A stretch of DNA of 64,000 nt from an uncultured Chloroflexia bacterium. Its GTDB lineage: Bacteria > Chloroflexota > Anaerolineae > Anaerolineales > UBA4823. The DNA lies in NCBI GenBank assembly GCA_963702535.1, contig CAVPDG010000007.1, forward strand, positions 4,949 through 68,948. The letters run 5' to 3'. Positions 4,855 through 46,622 of this stretch are shown here, piece by piece. The notes under the pieces were generated by a model. That model was given only the letters and a program-made list of their open reading frames with translations. It was not told the origin of the DNA and did not search any database. Numbering within the stretch: the stretch's first letter is position 1; the number at the start of each line of letters is the position of its first letter. Made by a program: the position numbers and the translations under genes.

Positions 4855-4871
4855 GCATCCTGAAGCACAGG

Positions 4872-10356: not shown

Positions 10357-10457
10357 TGGATCTCCTGATGATTTATGTGCAGATTCTGCATAGCACCGCA
10401 TCCCTTACCCCCTGCCCTCGAGACTCGCTGGGGCAAGGGAGAAGGGAATGGGGTAGG

Positions 10458-11820: not shown

Positions 11821-11845
11821 TTACTCCTTGATTGGATGGATATGA

Positions 11846-12868
11846 TTACGGTTCAACCACCACTTTGATGGCTTCGGGGTTGCGGGTAGCTAAGAAGCCC
11901 TGGGCGGTGTCCCCCAGGCTGAAGATATCCGAGACCAGGTCGCCCATGCGCAACTGGGGTAATAAGCTGACGGCGTTCTGGTAATCCTGGATGGTGCAGT
12001 CGATGGAGCCGTGGATGTGCAGCTCGCGGTAGTGCACGTCGTTGAGCTGCATGTTGAGCGTGGAGCCTTTGAGATAGCCGCTGAAGAAGAGCAGCGAGCC
12101 GCCGGCGCGCACCAGGTCGAAGGTCTGCTCGGTGGCAGGGACGCTGGCGGTGGCGACGATGACGCGGTCAAAGGCATAGCCGAAGCGGCTCTTGAGGTCG
12201 ACGACGGTGGGGTCCACAGCTTCGACGGCGCCCAGGTCGAGCGCCATCTCGCGCCGGCGGGGGAGCAGCTCGCTGCTGGTGACGCGCGCGCCCATCAGGC
12301 GGGCGAGCTGGATGAAGGTGGCGCCGATGGGTCCGCCGCCGACGACAAGCACCTGGTCGCCGATCTCGATGCCCACCTGGCGCAGGCCGTGCAGGCAGCA
12401 ACCCACAAGCTCCGCCAGGGCGGCGGCGCGGGGGCTGGCGCCGGCGGGCAGCTTGACGGCGCCGCCCACCTGCACCATCTGGGCAGGGATGTACATATAT
12501 TCAGCCATTGCGCCGTGCACGTTGCAGCCGATGACCTTGGCGGTGGCGCAGATGTTATCCTGCCCGTGCGAGCAGGGATAGCAGTGCATGCAGGGGATGA
12601 TGGGAGCGATGCCCACCAGGTCGCCGGGCTTGTAATCGCTGAGATCGGCGCCCACCGCCACCACCTCGCCGCAGACCTCGTGCCCCAGGATGACCGGGTT
12701 GATGTAGCGGGACGAGGGACCGTTGAAGTACATGCGCTGGTCCGAGCCGCAGATGCCGCAGGTGAGCACGCGGATCAGAAGCCCTTGCAATTCCATCTCC
12801 GGCAGAGCAAAGCGCTCGATGCGGATATCTTCCTTGCCGTACAGTAATGCTGCTTGCGTGTCTTTCAT
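11846..12868 (-). CDS. Zinc-dependent medium-chain alcohol/polyol dehydrogenase (sorbitol/threonine DH-like)
   Basis: 340 aa with CGICGSDQ, GHEVCGEV, a CMHCYPCSHGQDNIC structural-zinc motif and a GGGPIG Rossmann motif. Confidence 0.85.
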   Translation of the reverse strand: MKDTQAALLYGKEDIRIERFALPEMELQGLLIRVLTCGICGSDQRMYFNGPSSRYINPVILGHEVCGEVVAVGADLSDYKPGDLVGIAPIIPCMHCYPCSHGQDNICATAKVIGCNVHGAMAEYMYIPAQMVQVGGAVKLPAGASPRAAALAELVGCCLHGLRQVGIEIGDQVLVVGGGPIGATFIQLARLMGARVTSSELLPRRREMALDLGAVEAVDPTVVDLKSRFGYAFDRVIVATASVPATEQTFDLVRAGGSLLFFSGYLKGSTLNMQLNDVHYRELHIHGSIDCTIQDYQNAVSLLPQLRMGDLVSDIFSLGDTAQGFLATRNPEAIKVVVEP

Positions 12869-12949
12869 GTGCTGTCTCCTCGTAATTCGCAGTAAGCTGT
12901 CAGCGATCAGCGAACAGCTTCCAGATAAGATATAGGGTGAATACCCTTC

Positions 12950-13594
12950 TCAGGCGCCTGCCTGAGGTTTTTGACTGGTGAGCACTTCGCCAACGGCGCC
13001 GCCGGGGTGCGTGACGCCGAACTGCTTGGGGTCGAAGCCCTTCTCAGCGATGACCACGGCGCACAGGGCGTCGCACATGGCGGAGAAGGCGACGGTGCTG
13101 GTTGTGGCGAGGTAGCCGCCCAGCTCGTACTCCTGCAGGCTGGGGATGGGCAGGATATGCCCGCAGGCGCGCGCCAGGGTGGATGCGGTGTTGTTGACAA
13201 AAGCTACCGTGCTGGCGCCGCGCCCGTTGGCGATGATGACCATCTGGTTGACCTCTTTGCTCTCGCCGCCGCGCGACATGGCGACGAGCACATCGCCGGG
13301 CTGGATGACCAGCGTGTGCCCGTGCAGCCCGTCCTGGGTGGAGAGGAACATCGAGCGCCCGCCGGAGCAGGTGAGGATGTGGGCGAAGCGCTCCGCCACG
13401 GCAGCGGAGGTGCCTACCGCGGTGGTCCAAACCACGCCGGGGCAATCGCAAAGCAGGCGGGCAACCTGGGAGAACGGCTCGCCGAGCTGGTCTTGCAGCG
13501 CTTGCAGGGTCTCGACCTCTTGCTGGATGATCTGCTTGCCGGCGAGGATGGCTTGGGAGGGTGGCAAAGTTGGCATCAGGGTTCCTATTCTCAA
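12950..13594 (-). CDS. SIS-domain protein (phosphosugar isomerase / deglycase type)
   Basis: 214 aa with VWTTAVGTSAAVAERFA and VLVAMSRGGESKEV, which are SIS signatures. It overlaps the DeoR gene end by 4 nt. Confidence 0.7.
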   Translation of the reverse strand: MRIGTLMPTLPPSQAILAGKQIIQQEVETLQALQDQLGEPFSQVARLLCDCPGVVWTTAVGTSAAVAERFAHILTCSGGRSMFLSTQDGLHGHTLVIQPGDVLVAMSRGGESKEVNQMVIIANGRGASTVAFVNNTASTLARACGHILPIPSLQEYELGGYLATTSTVAFSAMCDALCAVVIAEKGFDPKQFGVTHPGGAVGEVLTSQKPQAGA

Positions 13595-14362
13595 ACCAGG
13601 ATCACTTCAATCCCCAGGTCGCGCAGGGCGGCGACGAAATCTGGGGGGGCATCGCTATCGGTGATGAGCTTGTCTATGCCGCTGACGGGCATGATGGTCG
13701 CCAGCCCGATGCCGCCGATCTTGCTCGAATCGGAGACGACGATGACCTCGGTAGCAGCCTGGACCATGGCGCGATCGACCTCGGCCTCCAGGACGTTGGC
13801 GGTAGTGAAGCCGTGGGAGAGGGTCATGCCGTCGGTGCCGAGGAACATCTTGTCGACATGCAGCCCTTTGAGCTGATCGACGGTTTGCGGACCGACCAGG
13901 ACTTCGTAGGCGTGGACGTAAATGCCGCCGAGCAGGATGAGGTGCACGCCAGGCCACTGACCGAACAGGCGCACGACGGGCAGGTGGGCGGTGACAACGG
14001 TGATGTTGCCGGAGGTGAGCAGCTCCTTATCCAGGAAGTGAGCGATCTGCAATGGCGTGGTGCCCGAGTTCGATGATCACCCTTTCGTCGCGGCGGATCA
14101 TCGCAGCGGCGGCGCGCCCGATGCGCTCCTTCTTCTCCCGCTCGGCGTCCAGGTACAGTGCCAGGGGGGTGGCGCTTTCCAGCGTGACCGCCCCACCATG
14201 CACGCGCTTCAGCAGCCCTTGCTCCTCCATGATCTGCAGATCACGGCGGATGGAGACTTCTGAAACACCCATATGCGTACTCAGGTCGGCAACGCGCACG
14301 GTGCGGTTGCGGCTCAGCTCATCCAGGATGGCAGAGCGGCGCTTATTGGTGAGGGCAGCCAT
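13591..14362 (-). pseudogene. DeoR-family transcriptional regulator, frame broken once at CCC 14063-14065
   Basis: The N-terminal HTH (ORF 14027..14362, ...RRDLQIMEEQGLLKRVHGGAV...VIIELG) joins the sugar-binding DeoR C-domain (ORF 13591..14052, TTPLQIAHFL...KMFLGTDG...VVSDSSKIG). Dropping one G restores LGTTPLQIA. Confidence 0.85.
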
Positions 14363-14573
14363 GGCTTGGGCGATTATCCTGAAAACCGATCGAATGCAAT
14401 TGAATATTTACGAATGAAACATTTTCAGGTTATTAATCTCGAAATATTGTACAATTATTCACCATTTCTGTCAATGCGGCTTTCATTAGAAACAAAAACT
14501 GTTTTCGTTTGGTGCGTTAAAAAAATTCAATTGAATGTGAGCGAGTAAGAGATGTTCTTGTTCGATTCGTTGA

Positions 14574-14775
14574 TTAAATTGGCTCGAATGGGTGGAAACC
14601 TGGCGCACGCTGCGCCTGTGGTACCGGGCGGGTCCGGGAGAGCCGTGGGCGATGCTCGGCGAGCCGCTGCAGCACCGCAATGGTGAGATCACCTTCAGCA
14701 CAGACCACTTTACCCAATTCGCCTTGTTCGGTGAGGCGGGCTACGAGATGAGACTTCCCGATGATTGTGCGCTAG
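14574..14775 (+). pseudogene. 3' remnant of a secreted-protein gene (C-terminal ~65 codons only)
   Basis: The open frame LNWLEWVETWRTLRLWYRAGPGEPWAMLGEPLQHRNGEITFSTDHFTQFALFGEAGYEMRLP... begins abruptly at an AT-rich/GC-rich boundary with no plausible N-terminus. Removing one C from CCC at 14757-14759 makes it end ...RLPMIVR-stop. Confidence 0.35.
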
Positions 14776-14947
14776 GGGGGCGAACAACTGCTGGCCCGGC
14801 GTTGAGCGCGCGCGACCATAACAGTTGACCGTCACAGATCCGGTGACTGCCGACTGGCAATCAGAAGAAGGTGGTTCAGGGGTTGTTACCCGTGAGCCAT
14901 CTTTTTTTGATCCCCTCGAATTGTTAAAACTTCGGTGAAAATGGCTG

Positions 14948-14976
14948 TTGACATACGACTGAAATTTCAGTATAAT
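14948..14976 (+). promoter_or_regulatory. Consensus sigma70-type promoter with an embedded 14-bp palindrome (candidate GntR operator)
   Basis: TTGACA (14948-14953), a 17-nt spacer, then TATAAT (14971-14976). The perfect palindrome ACTGAAATTTCAGT (14958-14971) fills the spacer and the first base of the -10. It lies 75-95 nt upstream of the GntR gene. Confidence 0.6.
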
Positions 14977-15050
14977 TTCAATAATATAGCACCAATGTTT
15001 TTGTTAGCCTGTACGTACGCCCGACCCGTAGAATAATGTGATCTTTATCC

Positions 15051-15752
15051 TTGAACGACTTGAATGGGTATATGCCAGAGCTGCTGCGGGACCAAATCTA
15101 CCAAAATATCAAGCGAGACATTTTGAGCGGCGTCTACCAGCCAGGCGAGCAACTGCTTGTCAGCCAGCTGGCGGAGCGTTACACCAGCAGCGTCACACCG
15201 GTGCGGGAAGCTCTGAGCTTGATGGAGCAGGAAGGCTTGGTGGATGTGCTGCCACGCGTGGGTTATTTCGTCTCGCATATCACGGTGCAGGATATTCGCG
15301 CCATGTACGACTACCGCATCATCCTGGAAGGGGCTTCGGCAGAGATGGCAGCCCGCTATATCACCCCAGAGGAGCTGGAAGCCCTGGCGAGAATACCGAG
15401 CGATTATATCCTGGGTGACAACGAGAGCTACCTGGAATATCTCAAGAACAACCGCGAGTTCCACCTTTCGATTGCCAGGGCATCCCACAACCATTTCCTT
15501 GCCCGAGCCGTTGCGATGATGTTAGACCAAACGCAGCGGCTCGTTTTTTTGGGGATTGGATCGCAGCAGCACACGGATGAGATCTTACAAGCCCATCCCC
15601 GGCTGGTCGAGGCGCTGCGGTACAGAGACGCTACATTCGCGCGTGAGATCATGATCGAAGGCATCAAGGCTGCGCGAGATGCAGCTATTGAGCAAATTAT
15701 TTACGGAAGCAACCTACCTGTTTACAAAACCGATTTGTCATCCATCGGTTGA
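15051..15752 (+). CDS. GntR-family transcriptional regulator (FadR/FCD subfamily)
   Basis: Winged HTH (LLVSQLAERYTSSVTPVREALSLMEQEGLVDVLPRVGYFV) followed by an all-helical FCD-like domain. The track start is TTG 15051; ATG 15072 (MPELLRD...) is an equally plausible start. Confidence 0.8.
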   Translation: MNDLNGYMPELLRDQIYQNIKRDILSGVYQPGEQLLVSQLAERYTSSVTPVREALSLMEQEGLVDVLPRVGYFVSHITVQDIRAMYDYRIILEGASAEMAARYITPEELEALARIPSDYILGDNESYLEYLKNNREFHLSIARASHNHFLARAVAMMLDQTQRLVFLGIGSQQHTDEILQAHPRLVEALRYRDATFAREIMIEGIKAARDAAIEQIIYGSNLPVYKTDLSSIG

Positions 15753-15915
15753 GTGAGAACCTTTCTGGCGGGGATGCTATCGGAAATAAAATCAAAGAGG
15801 AGGTCGTTATCGAGCTAACCACGATGCTTTACCCGAGTGCTGTCCAATGGATCGTAGGACAACAACCAATGTGTGTATCCTGTCACAGATATCGAAAAAC
15901 CTGGAGGAGTAAGCA

Positions 15916-17185
15916 ATGAAAGGAAAACTATTTACAATCGCCAGCATCTTGATGGTCATTTCCATGTTGCTGGCAGCCTGCGCCCAGACCCCCGCAGCCA
16001 CCACGGAAGCTGAAAAGGTTATCAAGATTGGATTGATCGCCCCTTACACCGGACCCAACTCGCGTGTAGGCGATGAGCTGAAAGCAATCCATGAGACGGC
16101 TTTCGGGGAAATCAACTGGGAAGTCTGCGGCTACAAGATCGAGCCGGTGTACATCGACGATGAGTCCGACCCGGAGAAAGCCGTGCGGGCGTTCAAGGAT
16201 GCCGTGCTCAAGGAGAACATCCAGGCGGCAACCGGCGGTTACCATAGCTCAGTCACCGTGGCGCTGATGGACCCGCTTGCCGAGAATAAGATCCCCTATT
16301 TCTTCCCACAGAACGAGTTCGAGCGTGATTGTTGAGAAGTGGAAGTCCGATCCTGTGAAATACGCCTACCACTCGTGGAAAGGTCGCCCGAGCCCCGTTA
16401 AGCTGATGGTGGGCTATGACCTGGCTTTGTTCAAGAAGGCGATTGCGAATGGCACCTGGGCGCCTGCCAACCAGAAGTTCTCCATCCTGTGCGAAGACAC
16501 CGATTTCGGTCGTGATATGTGCGCCGGCTTCAAGAATATGGCTGAAGGCAACGGCTGGGAGATGGTTACCGAGGACTATGTGCCTCTGGACGCCTCCGAT
16601 GTCTATCCTATCCTGACCAAGGTCCAGGCTGCAGACCCGTCCCTGTTCTTCATCTCCATGGGCGCCCCCGCAGTAGCCACGGGCATCATCAAGCAGACGC
16701 GTGAGGTTGGCTTAAACTCCTTGGTGATCAGCCACGGTTTGGGCTGGATCGGCGAGTGGTACGAGCTCACCGGCGATGCCGGCGATTACGTGCTGGATAT
16801 GATGCAGAAGTGGAGCTCACCCGAGCAAATCAAGTATCGTGACGCTTTCAAAGCGAAATACAACATGGACCCCAGCGCCAGCCTGTCGATCTCCTATGAC
16901 TACGATAAATTCTTCATCAAGATCATGGAGCGCGCTTGCGAGAAGTACGGCAAGCTGGACAAAGAGTCAATCTTCAACATCGGTAACGACGAAGTCAGCA
17001 AGGGCATTCTGACCTACAAGGATGGCTTGTGGTATGACGAGCTCAAGTGGGATGCCGACAGCCTGCCTGAGATGGTCGTAGGCGAAGGCTACTACCTCGA
17101 TCCTGTTGTCCAGTACTTCGGCGGCGAGGCCACGATCATCTGGCCCGAAAACAGAAAAGAAGCAGAGCTTCAGATTAAACAATAG
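15916..17185 (+). pseudogene. Periplasmic binding protein of a LIV/HAAT-type (branched-chain amino acid-like) ABC transporter, frame broken once around 16300-16325
   Basis: Lipoprotein signal MKGKLFTIASILMVISMLLAAC, then IKIGLIAPYTGPNS..., typical of LivJ-like type I binding proteins. The protein continues in a second frame (ORF 16277..17185: ...VIVEKWKSDP...FFISMGAPAVATGIIKQTREVGL...). Confidence 0.8.
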
Positions 17186-17204
17186 CTAGCCGGATGAAAC
17201 CAGT

Positions 17205-17232
17205 CCGGGGAGGCAAGCGATTGCCTCCCCGG
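17205..17232 (+). other. Perfect 12-bp stem-loop directly after the binding-protein gene
   Basis: CCGGGGAGGCAA, loop GCGA, then TTGCCTCCCCGG. It lies between the SBP stop (17185) and the ATPase start (17255). Confidence 0.55.
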
Positions 17233-17254
17233 CACTCATCTTGTCCTTAGGAAG

Positions 17255-18007
17255 GTGAGCATGTTACTACAAGTTGACGATGTAACGAAGCGTTTTGGTG
17301 GTTTGGTGGCATTGAGCCATGTCACGATGAACGTGGGTGAAGGCGAGATCTTTGGATTGATCGGACCCAACGGGGCAGGGAAGACCACCCTGCTCAATGC
17401 GATTGCCGGTGTGGGAAAACCCAACAGCGGTCATATTCGCTTTGATGGAAAAGACGTGACGGGCTGGACGCCTGAAAAAATGTGCCAGGCGGGCTTATCA
17501 CGGACCTTTCAGGTGCCGCGGAAATTTAAAAAGCTTACCGTACACGAAAATGTGCTCGTGGCGACGACATTCGGCTTGAAGAAGCCATCCAAGACCCTGG
17601 ATGAGCTTACCGATGAGGCATTGGAGTTTGTAAAGTTTCCACTGCCCTTCGACACGACTGCCAATAAATTGAACACATCGCAGCTCAAGCGGCTTGACCT
17701 GGCGCGCGCCCTGGCAAGCCAGCCGAAGCTGCTGTTGCTGGATGAGCCTGCTTCAGGTCTGACGCCGACGGAAGTGGAAAGCCTGATGGAGCTCATCCGC
17801 GAGGTCCGCAAGAGCGGTGTGACGATCATCCTGGTAGAGCACTTAATGAAAGTTATTATGAGCATTTGCGACCGCATGCTTGTGTTGGAGTACGGTTCGA
17901 TGATCGCCGAGGGTACTCCGAAAGAGATCTCCAGCAATCCCAAAGTGATCCAGGCTTACCTGGGTGAGGATTATCTTCAGGAGAAGGCAGCCGCTGCTGC
18001 CGGATAA
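17255..18007 (+). CDS. ABC transporter ATP-binding protein (LivG-like)
   Basis: Walker A GPNGAGKTT, signature-like LNTSQLKRLDLARAL and Walker B LLLLDEP. Confidence 0.85.
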   Translation: MSMLLQVDDVTKRFGGLVALSHVTMNVGEGEIFGLIGPNGAGKTTLLNAIAGVGKPNSGHIRFDGKDVTGWTPEKMCQAGLSRTFQVPRKFKKLTVHENVLVATTFGLKKPSKTLDELTDEALEFVKFPLPFDTTANKLNTSQLKRLDLARALASQPKLLLLDEPASGLTPTEVESLMELIREVRKSGVTIILVEHLMKVIMSICDRMLVLEYGSMIAEGTPKEISSNPKVIQAYLGEDYLQEKAAAAAG

Positions 18008-18018
18008 GGAGGGTAAGC

Positions 18019-18723
18019 GTGTTAGAAGTAAAAGGACTCCAGTCTGGGTACGGGGATTTGCAAATACTCTGGGAGGTTAACCTGGAGCTGGCGGAAGGCG
18101 AGCTCATCGTCCTGTTGGGTCCCAATGGGGCTGGCAAGACCACCACGCTGCGTACGATCTCCGGCTTGCTCAAACCGATAGCAGGTGAGATCAATTTCCT
18201 GGGCAAATCGATCCAGGGCATGCCTGCCAACGAAATCAGCAAGCTGGGGATCAGCTTTATCACCGAGGATCTCAACCTGTTCCCACAAATGTCCGTCAAG
18301 GATAATTTGCTGGTCGGCGCTTATGCGGTGAAAGACAAGCAAGGGATCAAGAAATCTATGGATTATGCCCTTGCACTCTTCCCCCGGTTGCAAGAGCGTT
18401 TCAGCCAGGAAGCGGGCACTTTGAGCGGCGGGGAGCGGAAGATGCTGGCGGTCGCGCGCGGCTTGATGGCGCAACCCAAGCTGATCCTGGTGGATGAGCC
18501 CTCCCTGGGACTCTCGCCGCTGATGACGAAGGCGACTTTTGACGCCCTGCAGACCTTAAAGAAGGATGGCACGACGATCCTGCTGGTAGAACAATTTCTG
18601 GGCAGAGCGCTGGAGATCGCCAGCCGGGGCTATATCCTGGAGCATGGCAAAATCGTGATGCATGCGCCAACCGTGGAGCTGGTAGAAAACGAGCGGGTAA
18701 AAGAAGTTTACCTGGGAATGTGA
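18019..18723 (+). CDS. ABC transporter ATP-binding protein (LivF-like)
   Basis: GTG start, Walker A GPNGAGKTT, signature LSGGERKML and Walker B LILVDEPS. Confidence 0.85.
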   Translation: MLEVKGLQSGYGDLQILWEVNLELAEGELIVLLGPNGAGKTTTLRTISGLLKPIAGEINFLGKSIQGMPANEISKLGISFITEDLNLFPQMSVKDNLLVGAYAVKDKQGIKKSMDYALALFPRLQERFSQEAGTLSGGERKMLAVARGLMAQPKLILVDEPSLGLSPLMTKATFDALQTLKKDGTTILLVEQFLGRALEIASRGYILEHGKIVMHAPTVELVENERVKEVYLGM

Positions 18724-18760
18724 TCCCATCTGGGCGAAGCCTCATAAAGGAGTGATATCA

Positions 18761-19657
18761 ATGGACATTGTTGCAGTGTGGAATGTTGTAGCGGTTGGGT
18801 TGGTGCGAGGTGGTTTATACGCTCAGATGGCGTTGATGCTTGCCCTCATCCTGGGTGTGATGAGCATCATCTCCATGATCAACGGCGAGATTTATATGAT
18901 CGGGGCGTACGTGGCTTACTTTGCTTTCACCAAGTATCACCTGAACCCCATCTTGGCGATCCTTTCCGCGGCGATTGTGACGTTTGTGGTGGGCGCGCTG
19001 ATCGAGCGCGGACCTCTGGCGGTGATGCGCAAACGCGCCGGTGAAGACTGGTACCTGAATACGTTTCTCATCACCGTGGGCTTGGCGTTTGTCATCCGCA
19101 ACCTGGCGGTGGTGCTCTGGACACCCGCGTACCGGGGCATTCAATGGTACTGGAAAGGCACGGTCAATATCGGCGGCATGGGCATATCCATCGACCGGCT
19201 GGTGGCTTTGACGATTGCAGCCATCTCGATTGTCGCACTACAGCTTTTCTTGCGGCGTACCCGCATGGGCCGGGCGATCCGCGCCGTGAGCCAGGATGAG
19301 CGTGGGGCAAAGCTGGCGGGAATCAACATTGCCAATATCTATACACTATCCTTCGGGATCGCCTGCATGTTGGGCGGTATTGCCGGAGCGAGCATGCTTT
19401 CCATCCTTCCAGCCTCACCCTACATGGGCATTGCTCCCAATAATTACGCCTGGCTGGTGGTTATGCTGGCTGGCTTGGGGAATATCGGTGGCGCGGTCGT
19501 CGGCGGGTTCTTGATCGGCATGGTGGAAGCCATATCCTATCAATTCTTTGGCGCTGGTTGGCCGTATGTGATCAGCATCTCCATCCTGATCCTCGTCATG
19601 GTGATCAAGCCGTCGGGTCTCTTCGGCACCTCTGTCAAGGGTGTTTGGGAAAGGTAG
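18761..19657 (+). CDS. LIV-type ABC transporter permease (LivH-like)
   Basis: Start moved to ATG 18761, with AAGGAG 9 nt upstream. Polytopic, with a typical LivH-like GNIGGAVVGGFLIG C-terminal motif. Confidence 0.8.
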   Translation: MDIVAVWNVVAVGLVRGGLYAQMALMLALILGVMSIISMINGEIYMIGAYVAYFAFTKYHLNPILAILSAAIVTFVVGALIERGPLAVMRKRAGEDWYLNTFLITVGLAFVIRNLAVVLWTPAYRGIQWYWKGTVNIGGMGISIDRLVALTIAAISIVALQLFLRRTRMGRAIRAVSQDERGAKLAGINIANIYTLSFGIACMLGGIAGASMLSILPASPYMGIAPNNYAWLVVMLAGLGNIGGAVVGGFLIGMVEAISYQFFGAGWPYVISISILILVMVIKPSGLFGTSVKGVWER

Positions 19658-19665
19658 GTCGAGCG

Positions 19666-20673
19666 ATGGCAATCGAACACGAGAGGGCTGTACCCATGCA
19701 CAATACCTTGAGCCGCTTTAACATCCGGGGCAACCTGCCGGTGATCCTGTTTTTTGTGCTGATTGGACTGGGACCGATATTCATCAAAGATGAATACTTG
19801 CGCCATCTGATGGTCGTATCGTTGCTCTTTGGCGCGCAGGGTATGGTATCTGACTTTACGGTTGGCTACATCAACATCTCCAACTTTGGTTTTGCTGCCT
19901 TCTTTGGATTGGGCGCATACACTGCCGGCATCCTGGTGGGCAATTACGATGTGAATCCATACCTCGGCATGGTGGCTGGGATGTTGATGGCGGGTTTACT
20001 GGGCTTATTCACCGGTGCGCTGACCATGCGCCTGCGCGGGCTGTATGTTGCCATCATGGCTTGGTTCATGGCGCTGGCGCTGCAGGCGTTAGCCCTGGCG
20101 ATGGTTGATCTCACGCGCGGTTCGAGGGGTTTGTTCGTGCCATCGCTCTTCGAGTCCGGGTCGATTATCCCGTATTTCTACGTGCTCTTCATCCTGGTGG
20201 TCATCATCTTCGTGGTGATCAAGCTGGTGATCGCCTCGCGGGTGGGCTTGGCGTTCAAAGCCATCGGCTATGATGTGGATTTTGCCCGGGCGTCTGGGGT
20301 GAATCCCACATATTACAAGATGGTCGCCTTCGTCCTTTCCTGCGGCTTCGCTGGTCTGCTGGGCTCGTTCTACGCCTACTTCGTTGGCATCCTGACGCCG
20401 GATGTGATGGGTACCCAGCACACCGTTGAGGTGATCGCGCTGAATGTGATCGGTGGGCGCGCCAGCCTGTGGGGTCCGCTCCTGGCTGGATTTGTGATCA
20501 TCCCGCCCTTCGAATACATGAAATCGCTGATGGAAGTGCGCTTGATCATCTACGGCAGCCTGCTGGTGCTGACGATGATCTTCTTCCCGCCGGGGTTGGC
20601 TGGCATCGTGTGGAGGATCGGTGGAAAGCTGGGTCTGGTGAAGCACAAGACTTACTTCGGGACGGATGACTAA
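19666..20673 (+). CDS. LIV-type ABC transporter permease (LivM-like)
   Basis: Start moved to ATG 19666 (MAIEHERAV...), 9 nt after the LivH-like stop. The 108 nt of track ORF upstream overlap the preceding gene. Polytopic. Confidence 0.8.
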   Translation: MAIEHERAVPMHNTLSRFNIRGNLPVILFFVLIGLGPIFIKDEYLRHLMVVSLLFGAQGMVSDFTVGYINISNFGFAAFFGLGAYTAGILVGNYDVNPYLGMVAGMLMAGLLGLFTGALTMRLRGLYVAIMAWFMALALQALALAMVDLTRGSRGLFVPSLFESGSIIPYFYVLFILVVIIFVVIKLVIASRVGLAFKAIGYDVDFARASGVNPTYYKMVAFVLSCGFAGLLGSFYAYFVGILTPDVMGTQHTVEVIALNVIGGRASLWGPLLAGFVIIPPFEYMKSLMEVRLIIYGSLLVLTMIFFPPGLAGIVWRIGGKLGLVKHKTYFGTDD

Positions 20674-26179: not shown

Positions 26180-26305
26180 GGGGAGTTCCTCGGTAGGAGT
26201 GGGATGGAGTTGCGGTGCTGAGGTTGATCTGATTATATAGTAAAAAACAGCCTTCCCTCGAGCCGAACTCGATGAAAGGCTGCGGGAAAGACAGGCTTTC
26301 GGTTT

Positions 26306-26885
26306 TCAGAGCTTCTGTTCTGCAGGTGTAAAGAGCCTGCCTGGCTTCCAGGGGGTGCCGAGGAGCGGCAGTAGCCAGCGGTCCAGGCCCCACCAGCCGG
26401 CGGTCTTCCAGGCGAGACGAGCAGCACCGCCAGGAAGAACAGCATCGGGTTGATGCTGGCTGAGCCTGCCATCATGAAGTTCCAGTTCATGAAGCCGCCA
26501 AAGAGGGCGGCGATGCCGGTGAACATGCCCAGGATGAGCGCCAGTCCGATGAGCAGCTCCCCGGCGACGACCAGCTTGGCAAACCAGGTGTAGCTGCCGC
26601 TTTCGAGAAGCGTCTCCAGGAAAGTGCGGTACCAACCGAAGGCGATCAGCGGGCGGGCGGGGGCTTCGGGAATGGCAACCGCCCGCTCCCAGAAGCCCTT
26701 CAGCGCTTCACCGCTCTGCACCCAGGCGGGATTGCTGAGCTTGCCCCAGCCGGATGTCAGCCAGGTATAACCAACGTACAGACGGAAATGAGCCAGATCC
26801 ATGCCCAGCGCGTGTTGCTGAAGAGCGCCTGCGCCACGGGCGGGTCTGTGATGGTGACGTTTTTATTCCAGGTTTGGGTAGCCAT
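26306..26885 (-). pseudogene. DoxX-family membrane protein, frame broken twice (about 26786-26788 and 26413-26420)
   Basis: Hand translation from ATG 26885 gives MATQTWNKNVTITDPPVAQALFSNTRWAWIWLI. This continues in the frame of ORF 26233..26802 (FRLYVGYTWLTSGWGKL...INPMLFFLAVLL), then in the frame of ORF 26306..26635 (LAWKTAGWWGLDRWLLPLLGTPW...). Confidence 0.7.
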
Positions 26886-27129
26886 AGTTCCTTCCTTGTT
26901 TGTTGGAAAATACCCACTGCCTGCCATCCCTTTAATCTAGGACTAGTTTACTCCAATTAGAAATCAGAGGGGATTAGCAATTACTCATCATCGCCAGCGG
27001 TGTTTGCGCCAGCAATTTTTTCCAGGTGCAGAAAAAAACCGTGTTATACTCCAGCGAACACTATGGCGACGACTATTTTCCACAACGACTAATTTCCCTA
27101 AAAATGCAGGGTTAATTTAGCGGTAGCCT

Positions 27130-27798
27130 ATGCCTCCCCCGATGAAGGAAGCCTACTTCACCCCAGATAACCTGGCGAGCCAGACCCAAGAGTTGTTGCA
27201 GGCGCCTGGCATCGTGCTCCGTCCGTCCACGCCCAAATTCAACCCGCAGGGAGCAGCCTTACTGGTGCTGGACATGCAGCTCTACTTCCTGGAGCCAGAA
27301 TCGCACGCATATATCCCCAGCGCGGCCGCTATCCTGCCGGGTATCGCGGAACTGACGCGCAGTTTTTATGCCCACGAGCTGCCGGTGGTATTCTCCCGGC
27401 ACACCAACACGCCCCAGGATGCAGGATGGATGGCAACCTGGTGGAAGGACTTGATCGCGCCGGATGAGAGGCGCAGCGCCATCACACCCCAGCTAGACAC
27501 CTCTCGGGCAAGGGTGATCGAGAAGAAGCGCTACGACGCATTCCTGGATACGCCACTGGAAGCGTACCTGCACAGCTTGCAGGTGGAGCAGGTGGTGATC
27601 ACAGGCGTGATGACGCACCTGTGCTGTGAAACCACTGCCCGCTCGGCATTCATGCGCGGTTTTTTGCCCTTCTTCCTGGTGGACGGCACCGCCACCTACA
27701 ACCGCTATTTCCATATCGCCACGCTCACCAACCTGGCGCACGGCTTCGCCCACCTGGCGCGGGTGCAGGATATCCTTGCCGCGCTGGAGGGCGAGTGA
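27130..27798 (+). CDS. Isochorismatase-family (cysteine hydrolase) protein
   Basis: AALLVLDMQLYF, KKRYDAF and VVITGVMTHLCCETTARSA give the D-K-C catalytic-triad context of isochorismatase/nicotinamidase-like hydrolases. Confidence 0.8.
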   Translation: MPPPMKEAYFTPDNLASQTQELLQAPGIVLRPSTPKFNPQGAALLVLDMQLYFLEPESHAYIPSAAAILPGIAELTRSFYAHELPVVFSRHTNTPQDAGWMATWWKDLIAPDERRSAITPQLDTSRARVIEKKRYDAFLDTPLEAYLHSLQVEQVVITGVMTHLCCETTARSAFMRGFLPFFLVDGTATYNRYFHIATLTNLAHGFAHLARVQDILAALEGE

Positions 27799-28702
27799 GC
27801 GTTTACGGCGTGGCAATCATCGGAGCGGGTCCAGCCGGGCTGGCAGCCGCCATCCAGCTTCAGCGCTACGGCATTGATGCGTTGCTGCTGGAGGCGGAAG
27901 CGGTCGGCGGGTTGCTGCGCAACGCCAACCTGGTGGAGAACTACCCCGGCTTCCCGCAGGGTATCCCTGGGATGCGAGCTGGCGCGCTTGTTCGCCGGGC
28001 AGCTCGACCAGCAGGGAGTGACCGTCACCTACGCTCGGGTGAGCGCAGTGAAGGACGAAGGCGATGCTTTCTGCCTGCAGAGCGACCGGGGCGCTTTTTC
28101 TGCCCGCATCCTGGTGATCGCCACGGGCAGCCAGGCGCTGACCTTGCAGGATTTCCCCATCCCCGAGGCGGCGAAGAGCAGGGTGCTGTACGAGATCCTG
28201 CCCGTGCTGGGTGTGGAGGGGCGGCGCTTCGCCATCGTGGGGGCGGGCGACCTGGCTTTCGATTACGCCCTCAACCTGGGCAAACGCAACGCCGTCACGA
28301 TCCTCAACCGGGGCAGCGAGACGCGCTGCCTGCCGCTGCTGCGCCAGCGAGCCGCAGACAACCCGCGAATTTCGTATAGGGAAAATACCTGGGTCGAAGG
28401 CGTGCGCCAGGCGCCGCAGGGCGAGCTGGAGCTCGCCTGCCGCAGCCCGCAGGGGGAGATTTCCATCGCCTGCGATTACCTGGTGGGGGCGATCGGGCGC
28501 AAGCCGCAGCTCGATTTTCTTTCAGAAGACTTCCTGCGTCACGCCGCCGGTTGGCAGCGGGAGGGCAGGCTTGTATCTCATTGGGGACGTGAAGAACCAG
28601 CAGTACCGCCAGGCATCCATCGCCATTGGGGATGGCGTGATGGCAGCCATGCAAATCCACCAGAGGAGCCATGAGCATGAACATCATCGCATCAACCGGT
28701 AA
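27795..28702 (+). pseudogene. FAD/NAD(P)-dependent pyridine-nucleotide oxidoreductase (thioredoxin-reductase-like), frame broken twice (GGG 27969-27971 and about 28555-28570)
   Basis: VAIIGAGPAGLAAAIQL...NYPGFPQGIPG | CELARLFAGQL...RFAIVGAGDLAFDYALNL... | GLYLIGDVKNQQYRQASIAIGDGVMAA. The GTG start overlaps the isochorismatase stop (GTGA). Confidence 0.8.
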
Positions 28703-29621
28703 GGAAGAGGTCGCTATCGTCTACATCGCCGAGTTTGGGGAGGGCAAGCGCATCGAGCTGGTCGAATCGCTGCAGCCGCCCATCCCACGCGAAGAGAAGT
28801 GGGTGCTGCTGGTCTCCTCCATGTTCGGCTGCCCGGTGGAGTGCATCATGTGCGATGCCGGCGGCTACTACCACGGCAAGCTGAGCAAAGACGAGCTCTT
28901 GGCGCAGATCGATTACCTGGTGTACAAGCGCTTCCCGGATGGGAACATCCCCTCCCGCCAGTTCAAGATCCAGTTCGCCCGCATGGGGGAGCCTTCGCTC
29001 AACCCGGCGGTGCTGGATGTGCTGGAGGAGCTGCCGCAGCGCTACCAGGCGCCCGGCTTGAAACCCTCCGTCTCCACCGTTGCGCCGTGCGGCACGAACC
29101 GCTTCTTCCGGCGGCTGCTCGATATAAAAAATGCGCTGTATTCCGGCGGCAATTTCCAGTTCCAGTTCTCGTTGCACACCACCGATCCCGCCCTGCGCGA
29201 CCAGATCATCCCGGTCAAGAAGTGGAGCTTCGACGAGATGGCGGAGTACGGCGAGCAGTTCTACGCCCCGGGCGACCTCAAGATCACGCTCAACTTCGCC
29301 CTGGCGGAGAGCTACCCGCTTGACCCGCAGGTGCTGCTGCGCACCTTCAACCCGCAGAAGTACCTGGTGAAGATCACGCCGCTCAACCCCACCTACAAAG
29401 CCTCGCGCAACAACTTGAATACCTATATCGACCCGCATGCCCAAGGCGCCGTTTACCCCAAGGTGCAGGCGCTGCAGGAGGCGGGCTATGATGTCATCGT
29501 CAGCATCGGCGAGGTGGAGGAGAATTACATCGGCAGCAACTGCGGGCAGTACCTGCGCAAGCACATGGAGTCCGCCGAGCCGCTGGGCAGCGGGTATACC
29601 TACCCGGTGCGGGAGATGTGA
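28671..29621 (+). CDS. Radical SAM protein with an RlmN/Cfr-like core
   Basis: CPVECIMC is a CxxxCxxC cluster motif. The order of blocks (LLVSSMFGCPVECIMC, FARMGEPSLNP, SVSTVAP, FQFSLHTTDP, KITPLNPT, IGSNCGQY) mirrors RlmN as I recall it (SSQVGC..C.FC, MGMGEPL, TVST.G, LAISLHA, NLIP.NP, AACGQL). Confidence 0.65.
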   Translation: MSMNIIASTGKEEVAIVYIAEFGEGKRIELVESLQPPIPREEKWVLLVSSMFGCPVECIMCDAGGYYHGKLSKDELLAQIDYLVYKRFPDGNIPSRQFKIQFARMGEPSLNPAVLDVLEELPQRYQAPGLKPSVSTVAPCGTNRFFRRLLDIKNALYSGGNFQFQFSLHTTDPALRDQIIPVKKWSFDEMAEYGEQFYAPGDLKITLNFALAESYPLDPQVLLRTFNPQKYLVKITPLNPTYKASRNNLNTYIDPHAQGAVYPKVQALQEAGYDVIVSIGEVEENYIGSNCGQYLRKHMESAEPLGSGYTYPVREM

Positions 29622-29642
29622 ACCCGATAAATCACAGGATTT

Positions 29643-30709
29643 GTGTCAGCGCTGCTGGCGTTGAGCCTGTCAGCCTGCGTGCTGCTCAGTGGCTGCTCTG
29701 CTCAACCAGCCACCCAACCGGTTGAGGTGACAGCAGTGTTCCAGACGACCAGCCCGCCCGAGACTGAGCAACCGGCGGCGACCAGCGCGCAGGATGTGCT
29801 TAACGATGTGATTAGCCTCCAGGTACCGGATAGCAGCCTGTTGGAGGGTTACGTCCTGGAAAGCACGAAGCTGGATGATGCGACGCAAAGCGCCTGCCTG
29901 GAGTACCGCCACCGTGGGGCGAACGGGGATAGCGTGCTGCTCATCGCCCAGGGACCCATCGCATCGGCGCCGCCGCTGGAGAAGATCCCGGACCTGCCGG
30001 AATACCTGTCCCTGCAAGAAGCGGTGACGATCGGTGGCGCTGAGAAAAGCAGCCGTGTAGCCGGCTGGAAGCGCAGTGCATGGGCGTGCAGCGAGCTCGC
30101 CGCGCAGGAGAATACCCCGTATTCCTACGCCCTGGCGCCCTGGCTCACCTGGCAGTCTGAAGGTCGCCAGTTCGACCTGTATTCCGCCAGCGGCGGCTGC
30201 GCCACGCCGGGCGGCATGACCCACCTGGACCTGCTGCGCGTGGCGGAGAGCATCACCGGGCAGTCGACGCACCCGGCGGATGAGCTGGACCCGGATTGCC
30301 TGCTGTCCGTCGCGGATGCGGAGAAGCTGGCGGGCTTCGACGTGCTGGAGCCTGGCGACCCTGCCGGAGAAGGCGCGCTTTTACTATGCCACATTCGCAA
30401 AGGCGCCCGAGCCCAGCGTGACCCTGCTGTTTTTACACGAAGACCATCCGGACATGGGCAGGTTTTTCCAGATCAGCCAGTTCACAAAAGCCCCCCCGTA
30501 CTTTTTAGCCTCTTGCGAGCAGGCGGGAAGCAACCCCTGCGAGACGCTACAGGTTGGGGATACGCTGGTAGTTTACCAATCCAGCGGACCGAGCGAGCAG
30601 CTCGACTGGCAGAAGGATGGCGTGTATTTTTCCCTGTTCAGGAGCGCCGGCGAGCCGGGTAAAAGCTACAAAGATCGAATTGTTGAAAGTGGTTGCAAGC
30701 ATGCGCTGA
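29643..30709 (+). pseudogene. Lipoprotein of unknown function (DUF4367-like C-terminal domain), frame broken at CCC 30360-30362 and probably at AAAA 30661-30664
   Basis: GTG start with lipobox LLSGC. The frame switches after ...KLAGFDVLEPGD to LPEKARFYYATFAKAPEPSVTLLFLHED...DWQKDGVYFSLFRSAGEPGK. A third frame gives ATKIELLKVVASMR-stop at 30709, just before the terminator. Without the second shift the ORF ends at 30753. Confidence 0.5.
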
Positions 30710-30724
30710 GAAAGTTCGCAAAAA

Positions 30725-30767
30725 AGGGGGTCAGGAGGGGATCTGACGCTTGACCTGACCCCCTTTC
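30725..30767. terminator. Bidirectional terminator hairpin between convergent genes
   Basis: AGGGGGTCAGG (30725-30735) pairs perfectly with CCTGACCCCCT (30754-30764). It is flanked by AAAA on the left and TTTCGG on the right. Confidence 0.65.
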
Positions 30768-44892: not shown

Positions 44893-46239
44893 ATGCTTGA
44901 AAATATTCGTGTAGCTTTTTCGCCTTTTGGTTTTTACGGTTATCCCATTGAAGTGGTCTCCCGGCTGGGGCACGAAGCCGCCGAAGCGCTGCGCGGCATG
45001 GGCATCCAGGTCACCGAGACCGACCCGATGACCGGCTTCGATGACGTGCCGCGCGGCTTGCAACAGCTCGCCGGCAAGGAGTACGACGCCATCATCGCCT
45101 GCGTGGTAGCCTGGACGGAGACGCCGGTGATCACCGGCATCCTGCGCGATTACCTGCACCTGCCCATCTTGCTCTGGGGCAGGGGCGGCTACACGGTGAA
45201 CGGGCGCCTGGTATCGCCCGCCGCCCAGGCAGGCACATCCGCCGTGCTGGACACGCTCAAGTTCCTCGGGGCGAAGTTCAAGTACATCTACGATTACCCC
45301 GACAGCCCAATGAGCCTGGATAAAGTAGCCGATTTCTGCACGGCGGCAAAAGCGGTGAGCACACTGGCGCACGCCCGCATCGGCATGATGGGCTATGCGG
45401 ATATGGGTCTCTACTCGCTCATGTTCGACGGCTTGCAGGTGCGCAAAAAGCTGGGCGTGGAGGTGGAGAGCTACGATATGCTCGAGATCGAGCAGGCGAT
45501 GCAGGCGCTGCCCGCGGAAACCGTGCAGGCGCAGATCGCCGAGTGGAAGCAGGATTGGGTCTTCGAGCAACCGGTATTGCCGCCCATCCTGGAGCGGGTG
45601 GCGCGCCTGACGCTGGCGCTCAACGCCAAGATCGAGGCGAGGGGTTACCTGGCTTGCTCCACCAAGTGCGTTTATGGGGTGACCAAGTACATGGGCTGCA
45701 CGGCTTGCATGGCGCAGTCCATGCTGGGCGATAAAGCGCACTTCGTGTGCGAAAACGACGTGCCCGGCATGATCACGCAGACCATGCTGGGGCTGCTCAC
45801 GGGGCAGTCCACCACCTTCCTGGAAATGTACGAGTATTACCCGGACCGCATGTTGGCCGGCGTTTGCGGCTTTACGCCCACTTCCTTTGTCGATGGCGGC
45901 AAGGTGAGCGTGCGCGGCCACACCTGGGGCGGCTCGTCCGGCGGCATCGTCAACACCGCCCAAATGAAGACCGGCAGGGTGACCCTGGCGCGCATCTCGC
46001 TGCATGGGGAGCGCTACCGCATGCACGTCCTCACCGGCGAGGGCGTGAAGCCGCGCGATTGGGAAGAGCTGGGCTGGGCGCCGCCTGCGCCTTACTTCCC
46101 CTCGCTGGAGGTCATCCCGGATGGCGGCATGGAAGAATTCGCTCACAAGGCGCTGGCGCAGCACTATGCGGTGGTCTACGGCGACCACCGCCAGCGGCTG
46201 GTGGATCTGTGTGATTTGCTGGATATCGATGTGATTTAG
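44893..46239 (+). CDS. Short FucI-like isomerase-family protein (paralog 3)
   Basis: Start moved to ATG 44893 (MLENIRVAF...), with GGAGGG upstream. Paralog blocks as for 30776..32110. Confidence 0.7.
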   Translation: MLENIRVAFSPFGFYGYPIEVVSRLGHEAAEALRGMGIQVTETDPMTGFDDVPRGLQQLAGKEYDAIIACVVAWTETPVITGILRDYLHLPILLWGRGGYTVNGRLVSPAAQAGTSAVLDTLKFLGAKFKYIYDYPDSPMSLDKVADFCTAAKAVSTLAHARIGMMGYADMGLYSLMFDGLQVRKKLGVEVESYDMLEIEQAMQALPAETVQAQIAEWKQDWVFEQPVLPPILERVARLTLALNAKIEARGYLACSTKCVYGVTKYMGCTACMAQSMLGDKAHFVCENDVPGMITQTMLGLLTGQSTTFLEMYEYYPDRMLAGVCGFTPTSFVDGGKVSVRGHTWGGSSGGIVNTAQMKTGRVTLARISLHGERYRMHVLTGEGVKPRDWEELGWAPPAPYFPSLEVIPDGGMEEFAHKALAQHYAVVYGDHRQRLVDLCDLLDIDVI

Positions 46240-46272
46240 TCAACCTCGGTTTGGTTCCACAATCGCGAGGGT

Positions 46273-46323
46273 GAAAATTTGAAGACTGCGTGCGGCGGAG
46301 CCGGACGCAGTCTTCAAATTTTC
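46273..46323. terminator. 19-bp perfect inverted repeat at the high-GC / low-GC boundary
   Basis: GAAAATTTGAAGACTGCGT (46273-46291), a 13-nt loop, then ACGCAGTCTTCAAATTTTC (46305-46323). It begins 34 nt after the isomerase stop. Confidence 0.5.
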
Positions 46324-46344
46324 GTAACTACTCAGTCCCCTATG

Positions 46345-46530
46345 CAGCAAAAAAGGTGGAACGTAAGGCTTACCAACCACTGCCTTGTAAAGCACATCCA
46401 ATACGGGCTGACCATTTTTTACGAGCCGTGGAGATGTAACTGCGAATATGGCAGAAAACCTTTCCCCCTCCTCAGTCTGAAAACCACCTGACACCTTTTG
46501 CTCCACCTTTGAGACTGCCAGCAAAAAGTG
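46345..46530 (-). mobile_element. Degraded C-terminal remnant of an IS66-family-like transposase
   Basis: ...KVEQKVSGGFQTEEGERFSAIFAVTSPRLVKNGQPVLDVLYKAVVGKPYVPPFL resembles, from memory, the IS66-type C-terminus (...K(V/I)SGCFRS.EGA..F..IRSY(I/L)ST.RK.G........L..G.P). No catalytic domain is present upstream. Confidence 0.4.
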
Positions 46531-46622
46531 GTCGAAAAACGAGGTGGCAGCAATTCGGCTGCAACCGCTTGTTAAGTATGATTTATGGCTATAAGACCCA
46601 CAAACGGGATAATATAATGTGG

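What the first reader, a model, noticed from the sequence alone, without database searches (positions are those of the whole stretch)
27130..29621. Translationally coupled isochorismatase / FAD-oxidoreductase / RlmN-like radical SAM operon
The three genes overlap: GTGA at 27795-27798, and about 30 nt at 28671-28702. They sit between unrelated membrane and lipoprotein genes.

I know of no characterised pathway that uses this trio. The hydrolase and flavoprotein could prepare or recycle a small-molecule substrate or redox partner for the radical SAM enzyme.
Basis: inference. Interest (0 to 1): 0.6.

Follow-up and report, generated by a model that had tools for sequence, protein, structure and literature searches.

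The report
Conserved hydrolase–flavoprotein–radical SAM gene cassette
Three adjacent genes (a cysteine hydrolase, a flavoprotein and a short RlmN-like radical SAM enzyme) form a cassette conserved in hundreds of mostly Chloroflexota genomes; I found no report of its function, and in this window the middle gene is broken by two extra bases that are probably assembly errors.

Summary
The three genes are real and co-directional: hydrolase 27130-27798, flavoprotein 27795-28702, radical SAM (rSAM) 28677-29621.

Relatives carry an intact 304-aa gene. Illumina contigs of related strains lack both bases. Similar extra bases break other genes in the window, so assembly error is the likeliest cause.

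- In 82 distinct related loci the flavoprotein gene sits directly upstream of the rSAM gene every time.
- The hydrolase gene is present in 67 of the 76 loci with enough upstream DNA.
- No fourth gene is conserved.
- Flavoprotein-rSAM and rSAM-hydrolase fusion proteins exist.

The rSAM protein has the RlmN/Cfr fold and keeps the cluster cysteines and the C355-like cysteine in all 83 sequences. It never has the C118-like cysteine, and it lacks RlmN's N-terminal domain. The flavoprotein resembles thioredoxin reductase (TrxR) but has no CxxC. The hydrolase keeps its nucleophile cysteine.

Best reading (about 0.4): a small-molecule pathway in which the NAD(P)H flavoprotein serves a class-A-type radical SAM enzyme and the hydrolase acts before or after it. 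The substrate is unknown, and I found no description in the searchable literature.

The parts
27042..27050 (+). Possible extended -10 promoter element TGTTATACT, about 80 nt upstream of the first gene
   Evidence: Read directly. Near-identical TGTTATACT or TGTTATGAT elements lie upstream of the first gene in L001, L002, L014, L019, L033 and L036. The consensus scan found no full -35/-10 promoter, so this part is weak.
27130..27798 (+). Isochorismatase-family cysteine hydrolase, 222 aa
   Evidence: PF00857 at E 2.3e-36 and 125.9 bits. The closest solved structure is EntB 2fq1, E 2e-20. Lys (KxYDAF) and the nucleophile Cys in THLCCETTAR are at least 93% conserved in 67 homologues; the Asp of LDMQ is about 85% conserved.
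27795..28702 (+). TrxR-like FAD/NAD(P)H flavoprotein without CxxC. In this window it is split over three frames by 1-nt insertions near 27975 and 28571
   Evidence: TIGR01292 and Pyr_redox_2 matches are spread over three ORFs. tblastn with the intact L001 protein covers residues 3-74, 59-259 and 259-290 in three frames. Alignment A1 shows the two extra bases. Illumina contigs lack one letter at 27974-6 and at 28570-3.
27975..27975 (+). Extra base 1 (context gatgCgag), shifting the flavoprotein frame by +1
28571..28571 (+). Extra base 2 (context aggcTtgt), shifting the flavoprotein frame by +1 again
28677..29621 (+). Short RlmN/Cfr-like radical SAM enzyme, 314 aa. It has the cluster motif CPVECIMC and the C-terminal motif SNCGQ, and lacks both the C118-like Cys and RlmN's N-terminal domain
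   Evidence: 6213 homologues. RlmN profile 39.7 bits, starting at model position 81. AF2 model pLDDT 88. Foldseek top hits are RlmN at E 3e-14 and Cfr at 2e-7. hhalign to E. coli RlmN gives probability 95%.

Best explanation
The locus is a self-contained three-gene operon. It probably has its own promoter and has start/stop overlaps. Its products work together on a small molecule rather than on RNA.

Proposed roles, all inferred:
- The rSAM enzyme is a class-A-type (RlmN/Cfr-like) enzyme. It most likely uses its [4Fe-4S] cluster, SAM and the conserved C-terminal cysteine (C289, the counterpart of RlmN C355) to transfer a one-carbon unit to, or otherwise radically modify, an sp2 carbon of a heteroaromatic, probably nucleobase-like, metabolite.
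- The CxxC-less TrxR-like flavoprotein is its private NAD(P)H-driven redox partner. It either reduces the cluster, as the FMN domain of eukaryotic TYW1 does, or supplies the reducing step that completes the reaction.
- The cysteine hydrolase is accessory. It cleaves an amide or ester bond before or after the radical step.

Shown here:
- gene order and its conservation;
- the fusion proteins;
- the fold and the conserved residues.

In this window the flavoprotein frameshifts are most likely assembly errors (about 0.85), so the operon is probably intact in the organism.
For: Conservation and linkage:
- The flavoprotein gene lies directly upstream of the rSAM gene in all 82 distinct loci. The hydrolase gene is present in 67 of 76 assessable loci. 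Flanking genes vary and there is no fourth conserved gene.
- Fusion proteins exist: flavoprotein-rSAM (P0128, P0146, P0180) and rSAM-isochorismatase (P0157, P0169, P0179, P0187, P0189). P0146 lies in a contig with no separate partner genes.

The rSAM enzyme:
- RlmN/Cfr fold and profile match.
- SNCGQ or TNCGQ in 83 of 83 sequences.
- No N-terminal RNA-recognition domain. Family median pI is 5.6.

The partners:
- The flavoprotein keeps both dinucleotide-binding motifs and has no invariant Cys.
- Precedent for a flavin module feeding an rSAM enzyme from NAD(P)H: ScTYW1 (PMC8941971).

Small-molecule context of distant relatives:
- Fusion to a vitamin-type transporter domain and to an MTA/SAH nucleosidase.
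- Phage-like NAD-salvage and nucleotide-kinase neighbourhoods.

Assembly error:
- Contigs 99.4-99.9% identical to the window lack the extra bases at other frame breaks.
- Contigs 95-98% identical lack them in the flavoprotein gene.
Against: - No substrate is identified: no riboswitch, no transporter and no pathway gene is conserved beside the trio.
- Distant relatives also lack the C118-like Cys and work without a linked flavoprotein. The flavoprotein is therefore not a general substitute for that residue.
- TrxR-like reductases normally pass electrons to ferredoxin or flavodoxin, not directly to an rSAM cluster (established knowledge).
- The rSAM protein is 58-69% identical across phyla. Conservation that high would also fit a conserved macromolecular target.
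- E. coli RlmN is itself mildly acidic (pI 6.6), so pI does not exclude RNA.
- No Illumina contig identical to the window covers the trio, so a real pseudogene in this strain is not excluded.
Confidence: 0.4

Rival explanations
1. The rSAM enzyme does not methylate. It is a radical lyase, isomerase or reductase of a salvage or catabolic route. C289 acts as a hydrogen-atom donor, as the cysteine of spore photoproduct lyase does. The flavoprotein restores the redox state or reduces an intermediate, and the hydrolase finishes the cleavage, for example of an imine or amide.
For: The resolving Cys needed for RlmN/Cfr turnover is absent in 83 of 83 members and in the distant relatives checked. Spore photoproduct lyase and other non-methylase rSAM enzymes are weaker fold matches. 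Distant relatives are fused to an uptake-type membrane domain and to a nucleosidase, which has the look of salvage. The hydrolase's nearest solved relatives cleave vinyl ethers or amides.
Against: The CGQ cysteine sits exactly where RlmN carries its methyl group, and the whole RlmN core aligns block for block. MTA/SAH nucleosidase fusion fits a two-SAM methylase at least as well, since it would remove both SAH and 5'-deoxyadenosine (inference).
Confidence: 0.25
2. The rSAM enzyme is an RNA (tRNA or rRNA) adenine methyltransferase, a minimal RlmN paralogue. The two partner proteins replace the missing N-terminal domain and the missing C118 function.
For: RlmN and Cfr are the only characterised relatives by sequence and fold. 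Identity of 58-69% across phyla is very high. JGI automatic annotation names the protein a 23S rRNA (adenine2503-C2)-methyltransferase.
Against: Its score is far below the RlmN cut-off, 39.7 against 290 bits. It has no RNA-recognition domain and no C118, and the family is acidic. Its partners are metabolic-type enzymes, and no RNA-binding domain appears in any fusion. The distribution is patchy and looks transfer-prone rather than housekeeping.
Confidence: 0.15
3. In this organism the operon is decaying: the flavoprotein gene is a true pseudogene with two frameshifts.
For: Two independent 1-nt insertions lie in a 908-nt gene. The Illumina contigs covering the trio are only 95-98% identical, so they come from related strains.
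Against: The hydrolase and rSAM genes are intact. At least ten further 1-nt indels in window positions 3000-20000 separate the window from contigs that are 99.4-99.9% identical, and they coincide with frame breaks in unrelated genes. Two of the sites share the context CGAG[T]TCG. This pattern points to consensus error.
Confidence: 0.13

Closest known systems
RlmN / Cfr (class A radical SAM RNA methyltransferases)
   Same: CX3CX2C cluster motif, MGEP, SLH..D..RD, NP and C-terminal CGQ blocks, and the overall fold. hhalign probability is 95%. Foldseek gives E 3e-14 and TM about 0.65.
   Different: There is no N-terminal domain. Leu, Met or Ile stands where RlmN has C118. The profile score is 39.7 against a 290-bit cut-off. 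The enzyme is always linked to a flavoprotein, usually to a hydrolase, and no RNA link is seen.
PHROG 24834 (phage radical SAM proteins of unknown function) and the QueT-like-rSAM-MTA/SAH nucleosidase fusions
   Same: The closest named family by sequence, at 97.5 bits and E 1.6e-27. It has the same short architecture, the same conserved C-terminal Cys and the same missing C118-like Cys.
   Different: Identity is only 30-36%. There is no linked flavoprotein or isochorismatase. The contexts are phage-like NAD or nucleotide salvage, or transporter fusion.
[quoted passage not shown]
   Same: A flavin module is genetically joined to an rSAM enzyme, on the N-terminal side in the fusions.
   Different: TYW1 has a flavodoxin-like FMN domain and a different rSAM family, and acts on tRNA. 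Here the partner is a two-domain TrxR-like FAD protein, usually encoded as a separate gene.
Low-Mr thioredoxin reductase and TrxR-like ferredoxin-NADP+ reductases / YpdA
   Same: About 30% identity over the full length to TrxR 4zn0, E 4e-26. Both Rossmann motifs and the C-terminal GD..RQ motif are present.
   Different: YEILP stands in place of CATCDG and there is no invariant cysteine. Scores are far below the TIGR01292 and TIGR04018 cut-offs.
Isochorismatase-like hydrolases (EntB/PhzD and cysteine amidohydrolases such as RutB and BiuH)
   Same: PF00857 domain. Nearest structure is EntB. Lys and the nucleophile Cys are at least 93% conserved and the Asp about 85%.
   Different: By my reading of the alignment and from memory of PhzD, EntB/PhzD have Gly where this protein has the nucleophile Cys. 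No equivalog model is matched; RutB scores 47.7 against 378 bits.

Membership tests
RlmN/Cfr class A radical SAM methyltransferases | CX3CX2C [4Fe-4S]/SAM motif and the partial TIM-barrel rSAM fold most similar to RlmN | tested here: met
   CPVECIMC is invariant. The top Foldseek hits are RlmN 3rfa and 5hr6 at E 1e-13 to 3e-14.
RlmN/Cfr class A radical SAM methyltransferases | C-terminal methyl-carrying cysteine (E. coli RlmN C355, motif ACGQL) | tested here: met
   hhalign pairs SNCGQY with AACGQL. SNCGQ or TNCGQ occurs in 83 of 83 family members. Methylation of this Cys was not tested.
RlmN/Cfr class A radical SAM methyltransferases | Second, resolving cysteine 7 residues before the cluster motif (RlmN C118) | tested here: not met
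   Leu in the window. Across 83 members the position is L 48, M 22, I 11, Q 2 and never Cys.
RlmN/Cfr class A radical SAM methyltransferases | N-terminal accessory (RNA-recognition) domain | tested here: not met
   The TIGR00048 match starts at model position 81 of 355. The hhalign match starts at RlmN residue 109.
RlmN/Cfr class A radical SAM methyltransferases | Score above the curated family cut-off | tested here: not met
   TIGR00048 scores 39.7 bits against 290. The Cfr models score 23-27 bits against 468-550.
RlmN/Cfr class A radical SAM methyltransferases | Methylates A2503 of 23S rRNA or A37 of tRNA | not testable with these tools
   This needs biochemistry or RNA mass spectrometry.
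Isochorismatase-like cysteine hydrolases (PF00857) | Pfam domain above the gathering score | tested here: met
   125.9 bits against 27.
Isochorismatase-like cysteine hydrolases (PF00857) | Asp-Lys-Cys catalytic triad | tested here: met
   K132 and C165 are at least 93% conserved. The Asp of LDMQ is about 85% conserved, with some ORFs cut at the N-terminus. Positions were assigned from the alignment to EntB and RutB.
Thioredoxin reductase (TIGR01292) | Redox-active CxxC in the NADPH domain | tested here: not met
   YEILP aligns where TrxR has CAxC. No Cys column is conserved above 78%.
Thioredoxin reductase (TIGR01292) | Two dinucleotide-binding (FAD and NAD(P)H) motifs | tested here: met
   GAGPAG, GAGDxAxDYA and GD..RQ are conserved in 83 homologues.
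QueL (queuine lyase) of queuosine salvage | Homology to C. difficile QueL, and a setting with QueK/QueT behind a preQ1 riboswitch | tested here: inconclusive
   Only distant relatives (30-32% identity) are fused to a QueT-like domain. No preQ1 riboswitch was found. Earlier unchecked notes place QueL in the unrelated RaSEA-like family. No QueL sequence was available to compare.
Known anti-phage defence systems (PADLOC) | Match of any of the three proteins to a defence-system model | tested here: not met
   The hydrolase and rSAM protein have no hits. The flavoprotein has only an 18-bit Rossmann-motif match.

The most novel reading that the evidence does not exclude
The flavoprotein-rSAM pair is a third functional branch of class A radical SAM enzymes, one that acts on a free metabolite. 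C289 carries a SAM-derived methyl group. Its methylene radical adds to the substrate. Because no resolving cysteine exists, the Cys-CH2-substrate adduct is released reductively by the NAD(P)H-reduced flavin. This would be a radical counterpart of the methylene-transfer-plus-flavin-hydride logic of ThyX and TrmFO. Without the flavoprotein, the substrate should remain covalently trapped on C289.
Probability: 0.15. Interest if true: 0.85.

Novelty: new variant of a known kind. Interest (0 to 1): 0.6.

Why it matters
RlmN and Cfr are, as far as I know, the only characterised class A radical SAM methylases, and both act on RNA. This family keeps their methyl-carrier cysteine but never has the resolving cysteine. 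It has more than 6000 sequences in public data and occurs in at least 577 species-level genomes. It is always partnered with a dedicated flavoprotein.

Working out its reaction would give:
- a new substrate class, and possibly a new way of completing class-A radical methylation;
- an example of a private NAD(P)H-linked redox partner for a bacterial radical SAM enzyme;
- a function for a cassette common in Anaerolineae of wastewater, sediments and groundwater.

The missing resolving cysteine also suggests a practical way to find the substrate, by covalent trapping on C289.

Separately, gene calls from this assembly should be treated with care because of its frequent 1-nt indels.

Tried and rejected
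- Riboswitch or RNA leader: Rfam found nothing relevant in the window or in eight related loci. Upstream regions of 61 loci share no motif beyond promoter-like TGnTATAAT elements.
- Fourth conserved gene: clustering of all flank ORFs from 83 loci found none. The clusters present in 16-65 loci are antisense shadow ORFs inside the trio.
- A replacement hydrolase where the isochorismatase gene is absent: none was evident in nine loci.
- QueL (queuine lyase) as the nearest characterised relative: suggested by the QueT-like fusions. No preQ1 riboswitch was found. The Yuan 2019 paper is not held. Earlier notes place QueL in another rSAM family. Dropped as a lead.
- Iron link (DtxR, FeoAB and FTR1 near the trio in L001 and L002): not general.
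- Programmed frameshifting in the flavoprotein gene: rejected. Neither site is shared with relatives, and the same kind of indel is scattered over unrelated genes.
- Defence system: no PADLOC match.
- Literature: five searches found nothing on the trio.
- The genome search and the fetch from genomes were shut. I therefore could not check for a canonical rlmN in the same genome or run phylogenetic profiles.
- The window's own rSAM protein is not on record in the contig index.
Full report
**What is in the sequence**

Between a minus-strand DoxX-like gene and a downstream lipoprotein gene lie three plus-strand genes.

- Gene 1 (27130-27798, 222 aa) is an isochorismatase-family protein: PF00857 at 125.9 bits.
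- Gene 3 is a 314-aa radical SAM (rSAM) protein with the motif CPVECIMC. Its only curated matches are weak ones to RlmN and Cfr. TIGR00048 scores 39.7 bits against a 290-bit cut-off, and the match starts at model position 81.
- The stretch between them encodes a flavoprotein resembling thioredoxin reductase (TrxR), but not in one frame. The N-terminal FAD motif is in the frame of 27795. The central part is in the +1 frame. The C-terminal GD..RQ part is in the +2 frame, ending at 28702.

The rSAM start is most likely the ATG at 28677. Homologues begin MK(I/V)IAS, and GAGGAG lies 8 nt upstream. That gives a 26-nt overlap with the flavoprotein tail.

**The frameshifts**

Relatives at 85% and 78% rSAM identity (L001, L002) carry an intact 304-aa flavoprotein gene in the same place. 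A DNA alignment shows that the window has one extra base near 27975 and another near 28571.

Illumina wastewater contigs 95-98% identical to the trio lack one letter at each site, and a third at 29646-8.

Elsewhere in the window, contigs 99.4-99.9% identical to it differ by at least ten single-base indels within window positions 3000-20000. Most are extra bases in the window: 5238, 11126, 11458/9, 14069, 14519, 14755, 15044 and 16318. Some fall exactly where other genes break frame:

- a Peripla_BP_6 gene at 16318;
- a BPD_transp_1 permease at 5238;
- overlapping ORFs at 14069.

Two of the sites share the context CGAG[T]TCG.

I read this as consensus error in the assembly (about 0.85), not gene decay or programmed frameshifting.

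**Is the trio a unit?**

The rSAM family is large. The word-indexed search returned 6213 proteins, and at least 577 loci were found in one-genome-per-species contigs. Counts below are over 82 distinct related loci:

| Feature | Result |
|---|---|
| Flavoprotein gene directly upstream of the rSAM gene | 82 of 82 |
| Hydrolase gene present upstream of the flavoprotein gene | 67 |
| Hydrolase not assessable (contig end) | 6 |
| Hydrolase absent | 9 |
| Other gene families shared by more than 9 loci | none |

Flanking genes differ even between close relatives.

The library of 50%-identity representatives holds two kinds of fusion protein:

- flavoprotein-rSAM (P0128, P0146, P0180);
- rSAM-isochorismatase (P0157, P0169, P0179, P0187, P0189).

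The second order differs from the operon order, so it cannot come from read-through between neighbouring genes. P0146 lies in a contig without separate partner genes.

Carriers are mostly Chloroflexota (Anaerolineae). Acetothermia, Fraserbacteria, Eisenbacteria, Zixibacteria, Fermentibacteria and others are nested among them in the tree. That suggests horizontal transfer, or in some cases bin contamination.

The flavoprotein-rSAM pair is therefore the core, and the hydrolase a frequent accessory.

**The proteins**

*Radical SAM enzyme.* An AlphaFold model (pLDDT 88) is closest to RlmN (Foldseek E 3e-14 to 2e-12, TM about 0.65), then to Cfr at 2e-7. Other rSAM families are far weaker. Profile alignment to E. 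coli RlmN (fetched; hhalign probability 95%) pairs the blocks as follows:

| Window protein | E. coli RlmN |
|---|---|
| GCPVECIMC | GCALECKFC |
| MGEPSLN | MGEPLLN |
| SLHTTDPALRDQIIPV | SLHAPNDEIRDEIVPI |
| KITPLNP | NLIPWNP |
| SNCGQY | AACGQL (C355) |
| Leu | C118 |

Among 83 members the C355-like Cys is always present. The C118 position is L, M, I or Q and never Cys. The match starts at RlmN residue 109, so the N-terminal domain is missing. The family is acidic, with a median pI of 5.6.

*Flavoprotein.* It is about 30% identical to low-Mr TrxR (4zn0, E 4e-26). It reads YEILP where TrxR has CATCDG and has no invariant Cys. Both dinucleotide-binding motifs are conserved.

*Hydrolase.* It is nearest to EntB (2fq1, E 2e-20). 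It keeps the nucleophile Cys in an almost invariant THLCCETTAR, plus the Lys and the Asp.

**Hints from distant relatives**

Proteins 30-38% identical to the rSAM enzyme share the short architecture, the C-terminal Cys and the missing C118-like Cys. They comprise:

- PHROG 24834, 'unknown function'. The window protein scores 97.5 bits here, better than against RlmN. One member lies in a phage-like contig among NAPRTase, NUDIX, NAD kinase and PRPP synthetase genes.
- Fusions to a QueT-like membrane domain, one of them also to a full MTA/SAH nucleosidase.
- A member behind a TIR-like protein and a P-loop kinase.

These settings point to free nucleobase, nucleoside or cofactor-like substrates rather than RNA. 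None of these relatives has a linked flavoprotein. That argues against the flavoprotein being a general replacement for C118.

**Mechanism**

The proposed mechanism is given under best explanation (confidence about 0.4). The points to stress here are:

- Only the anatomy and its conservation are shown; every catalytic step is inferred.

Rivals:

- a non-methylating radical lyase or isomerase of a salvage route (0.25);
- a minimal RNA methyltransferase with helper proteins (0.15);
- for this genome only, a truly decayed operon (0.13).

**Novelty**

The following checks give no functional name to the trio or to the rSAM family:

- NCBIfam: only sub-threshold matches for all three proteins.
- Pfam: only superfamily-level domain matches, with the rSAM protein itself below the gathering score.
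- PADLOC: no match for the hydrolase or rSAM protein and only an 18-bit Rossmann-motif match for the flavoprotein.
- PHROGs: the rSAM protein matches only a family of unknown function.
- Literature: five full-text searches found no description.

Earlier first-stage notes from this scan flagged the same trio in other genomes. Those notes are unchecked and are not independent evidence.

I class the system as a new variant of a known kind: a class-A-like radical SAM enzyme in an undescribed three-component arrangement. Interest is 0.6.

Noticed in passing
window 3000-20000 and 27900-29700: The window carries frequent single-base indels, mostly extra bases, against Illumina contigs that are 95-98% identical in the trio region and 99.4-99.9% identical elsewhere. 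Extra bases are at 5238, 11126, 11458/9, 14069, 14519, 14755, 15044, 16318, ~27975, ~28571 and ~29647. The window lacks a base at 11659 and 14930. Sites 14069 and 16318 share the context CGAG[T]TCG. This suggests systematic consensus error in the assembly.
   Followed up: partly
window 15913-17185 (+), 4872-5748 (-), 13591-14407 (-): Other genes are split across frames at the indel sites. A Peripla_BP_6 binding protein has profile positions 2-99 and 137-303 in two ORFs. A BPD_transp_1 permease and a third ORF pair are split in the same way.
   Followed up: partly
window 29643-30753 (+): The downstream lipoprotein gene (lipobox LSGC) has an indel at 29646-8 relative to related contigs. Two overlapping ORFs (29643-30662 and 30280-30753) suggest a further frameshift.
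   Followed up: no
window 26233-26802 (-): The DoxX-like gene has an odd, low-complexity C-terminal tail and an overlapping same-strand ORF (26306-26635). It may be another frameshifted gene.
   Followed up: no
L087 (802-1842), L085, L090-92: Relatives of the rSAM enzyme in PHROG 24834 sit in phage-like contigs. One lies among NAPRTase, NUDIX, NAD kinase, PRPP synthetase and T4-type RNA ligase genes, a neighbourhood that looks like NAD salvage.
   Followed up: partly
L089 5001-7445; L088 641-2401: Single ORFs fuse a QueT-like polytopic membrane domain to a short RlmN-like rSAM domain. In L089 a complete MTA/SAH nucleosidase is also fused (NF004079, 223.9 bits). No preQ1 riboswitch lies upstream.
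   Followed up: partly
L096 1012-4399; L097; L098: A 38%-identical rSAM relative follows a SpbK/ThsB-like TIR protein and a P-loop kinase, and lies next to a PRK-family kinase. This may be a defence-type context.
   Followed up: no
L057, L063, L069, L072, L075, L077, L079, L083 (just upstream of the trio); L002 834-1472 (-): A conserved gene lies directly upstream of the trio in one Chloroflexota clade. It resembles DUF3786 by eye; Pfam confirmed DUF3786 only for the L002 gene. Its product ends ...HYLPTDVCAILGS.LTRK.
   Followed up: no
window 46000-52000 and 58000-60000: GC content drops to 0.48-0.51 against about 0.60-0.64 elsewhere. These may be foreign islands.
   Followed up: no
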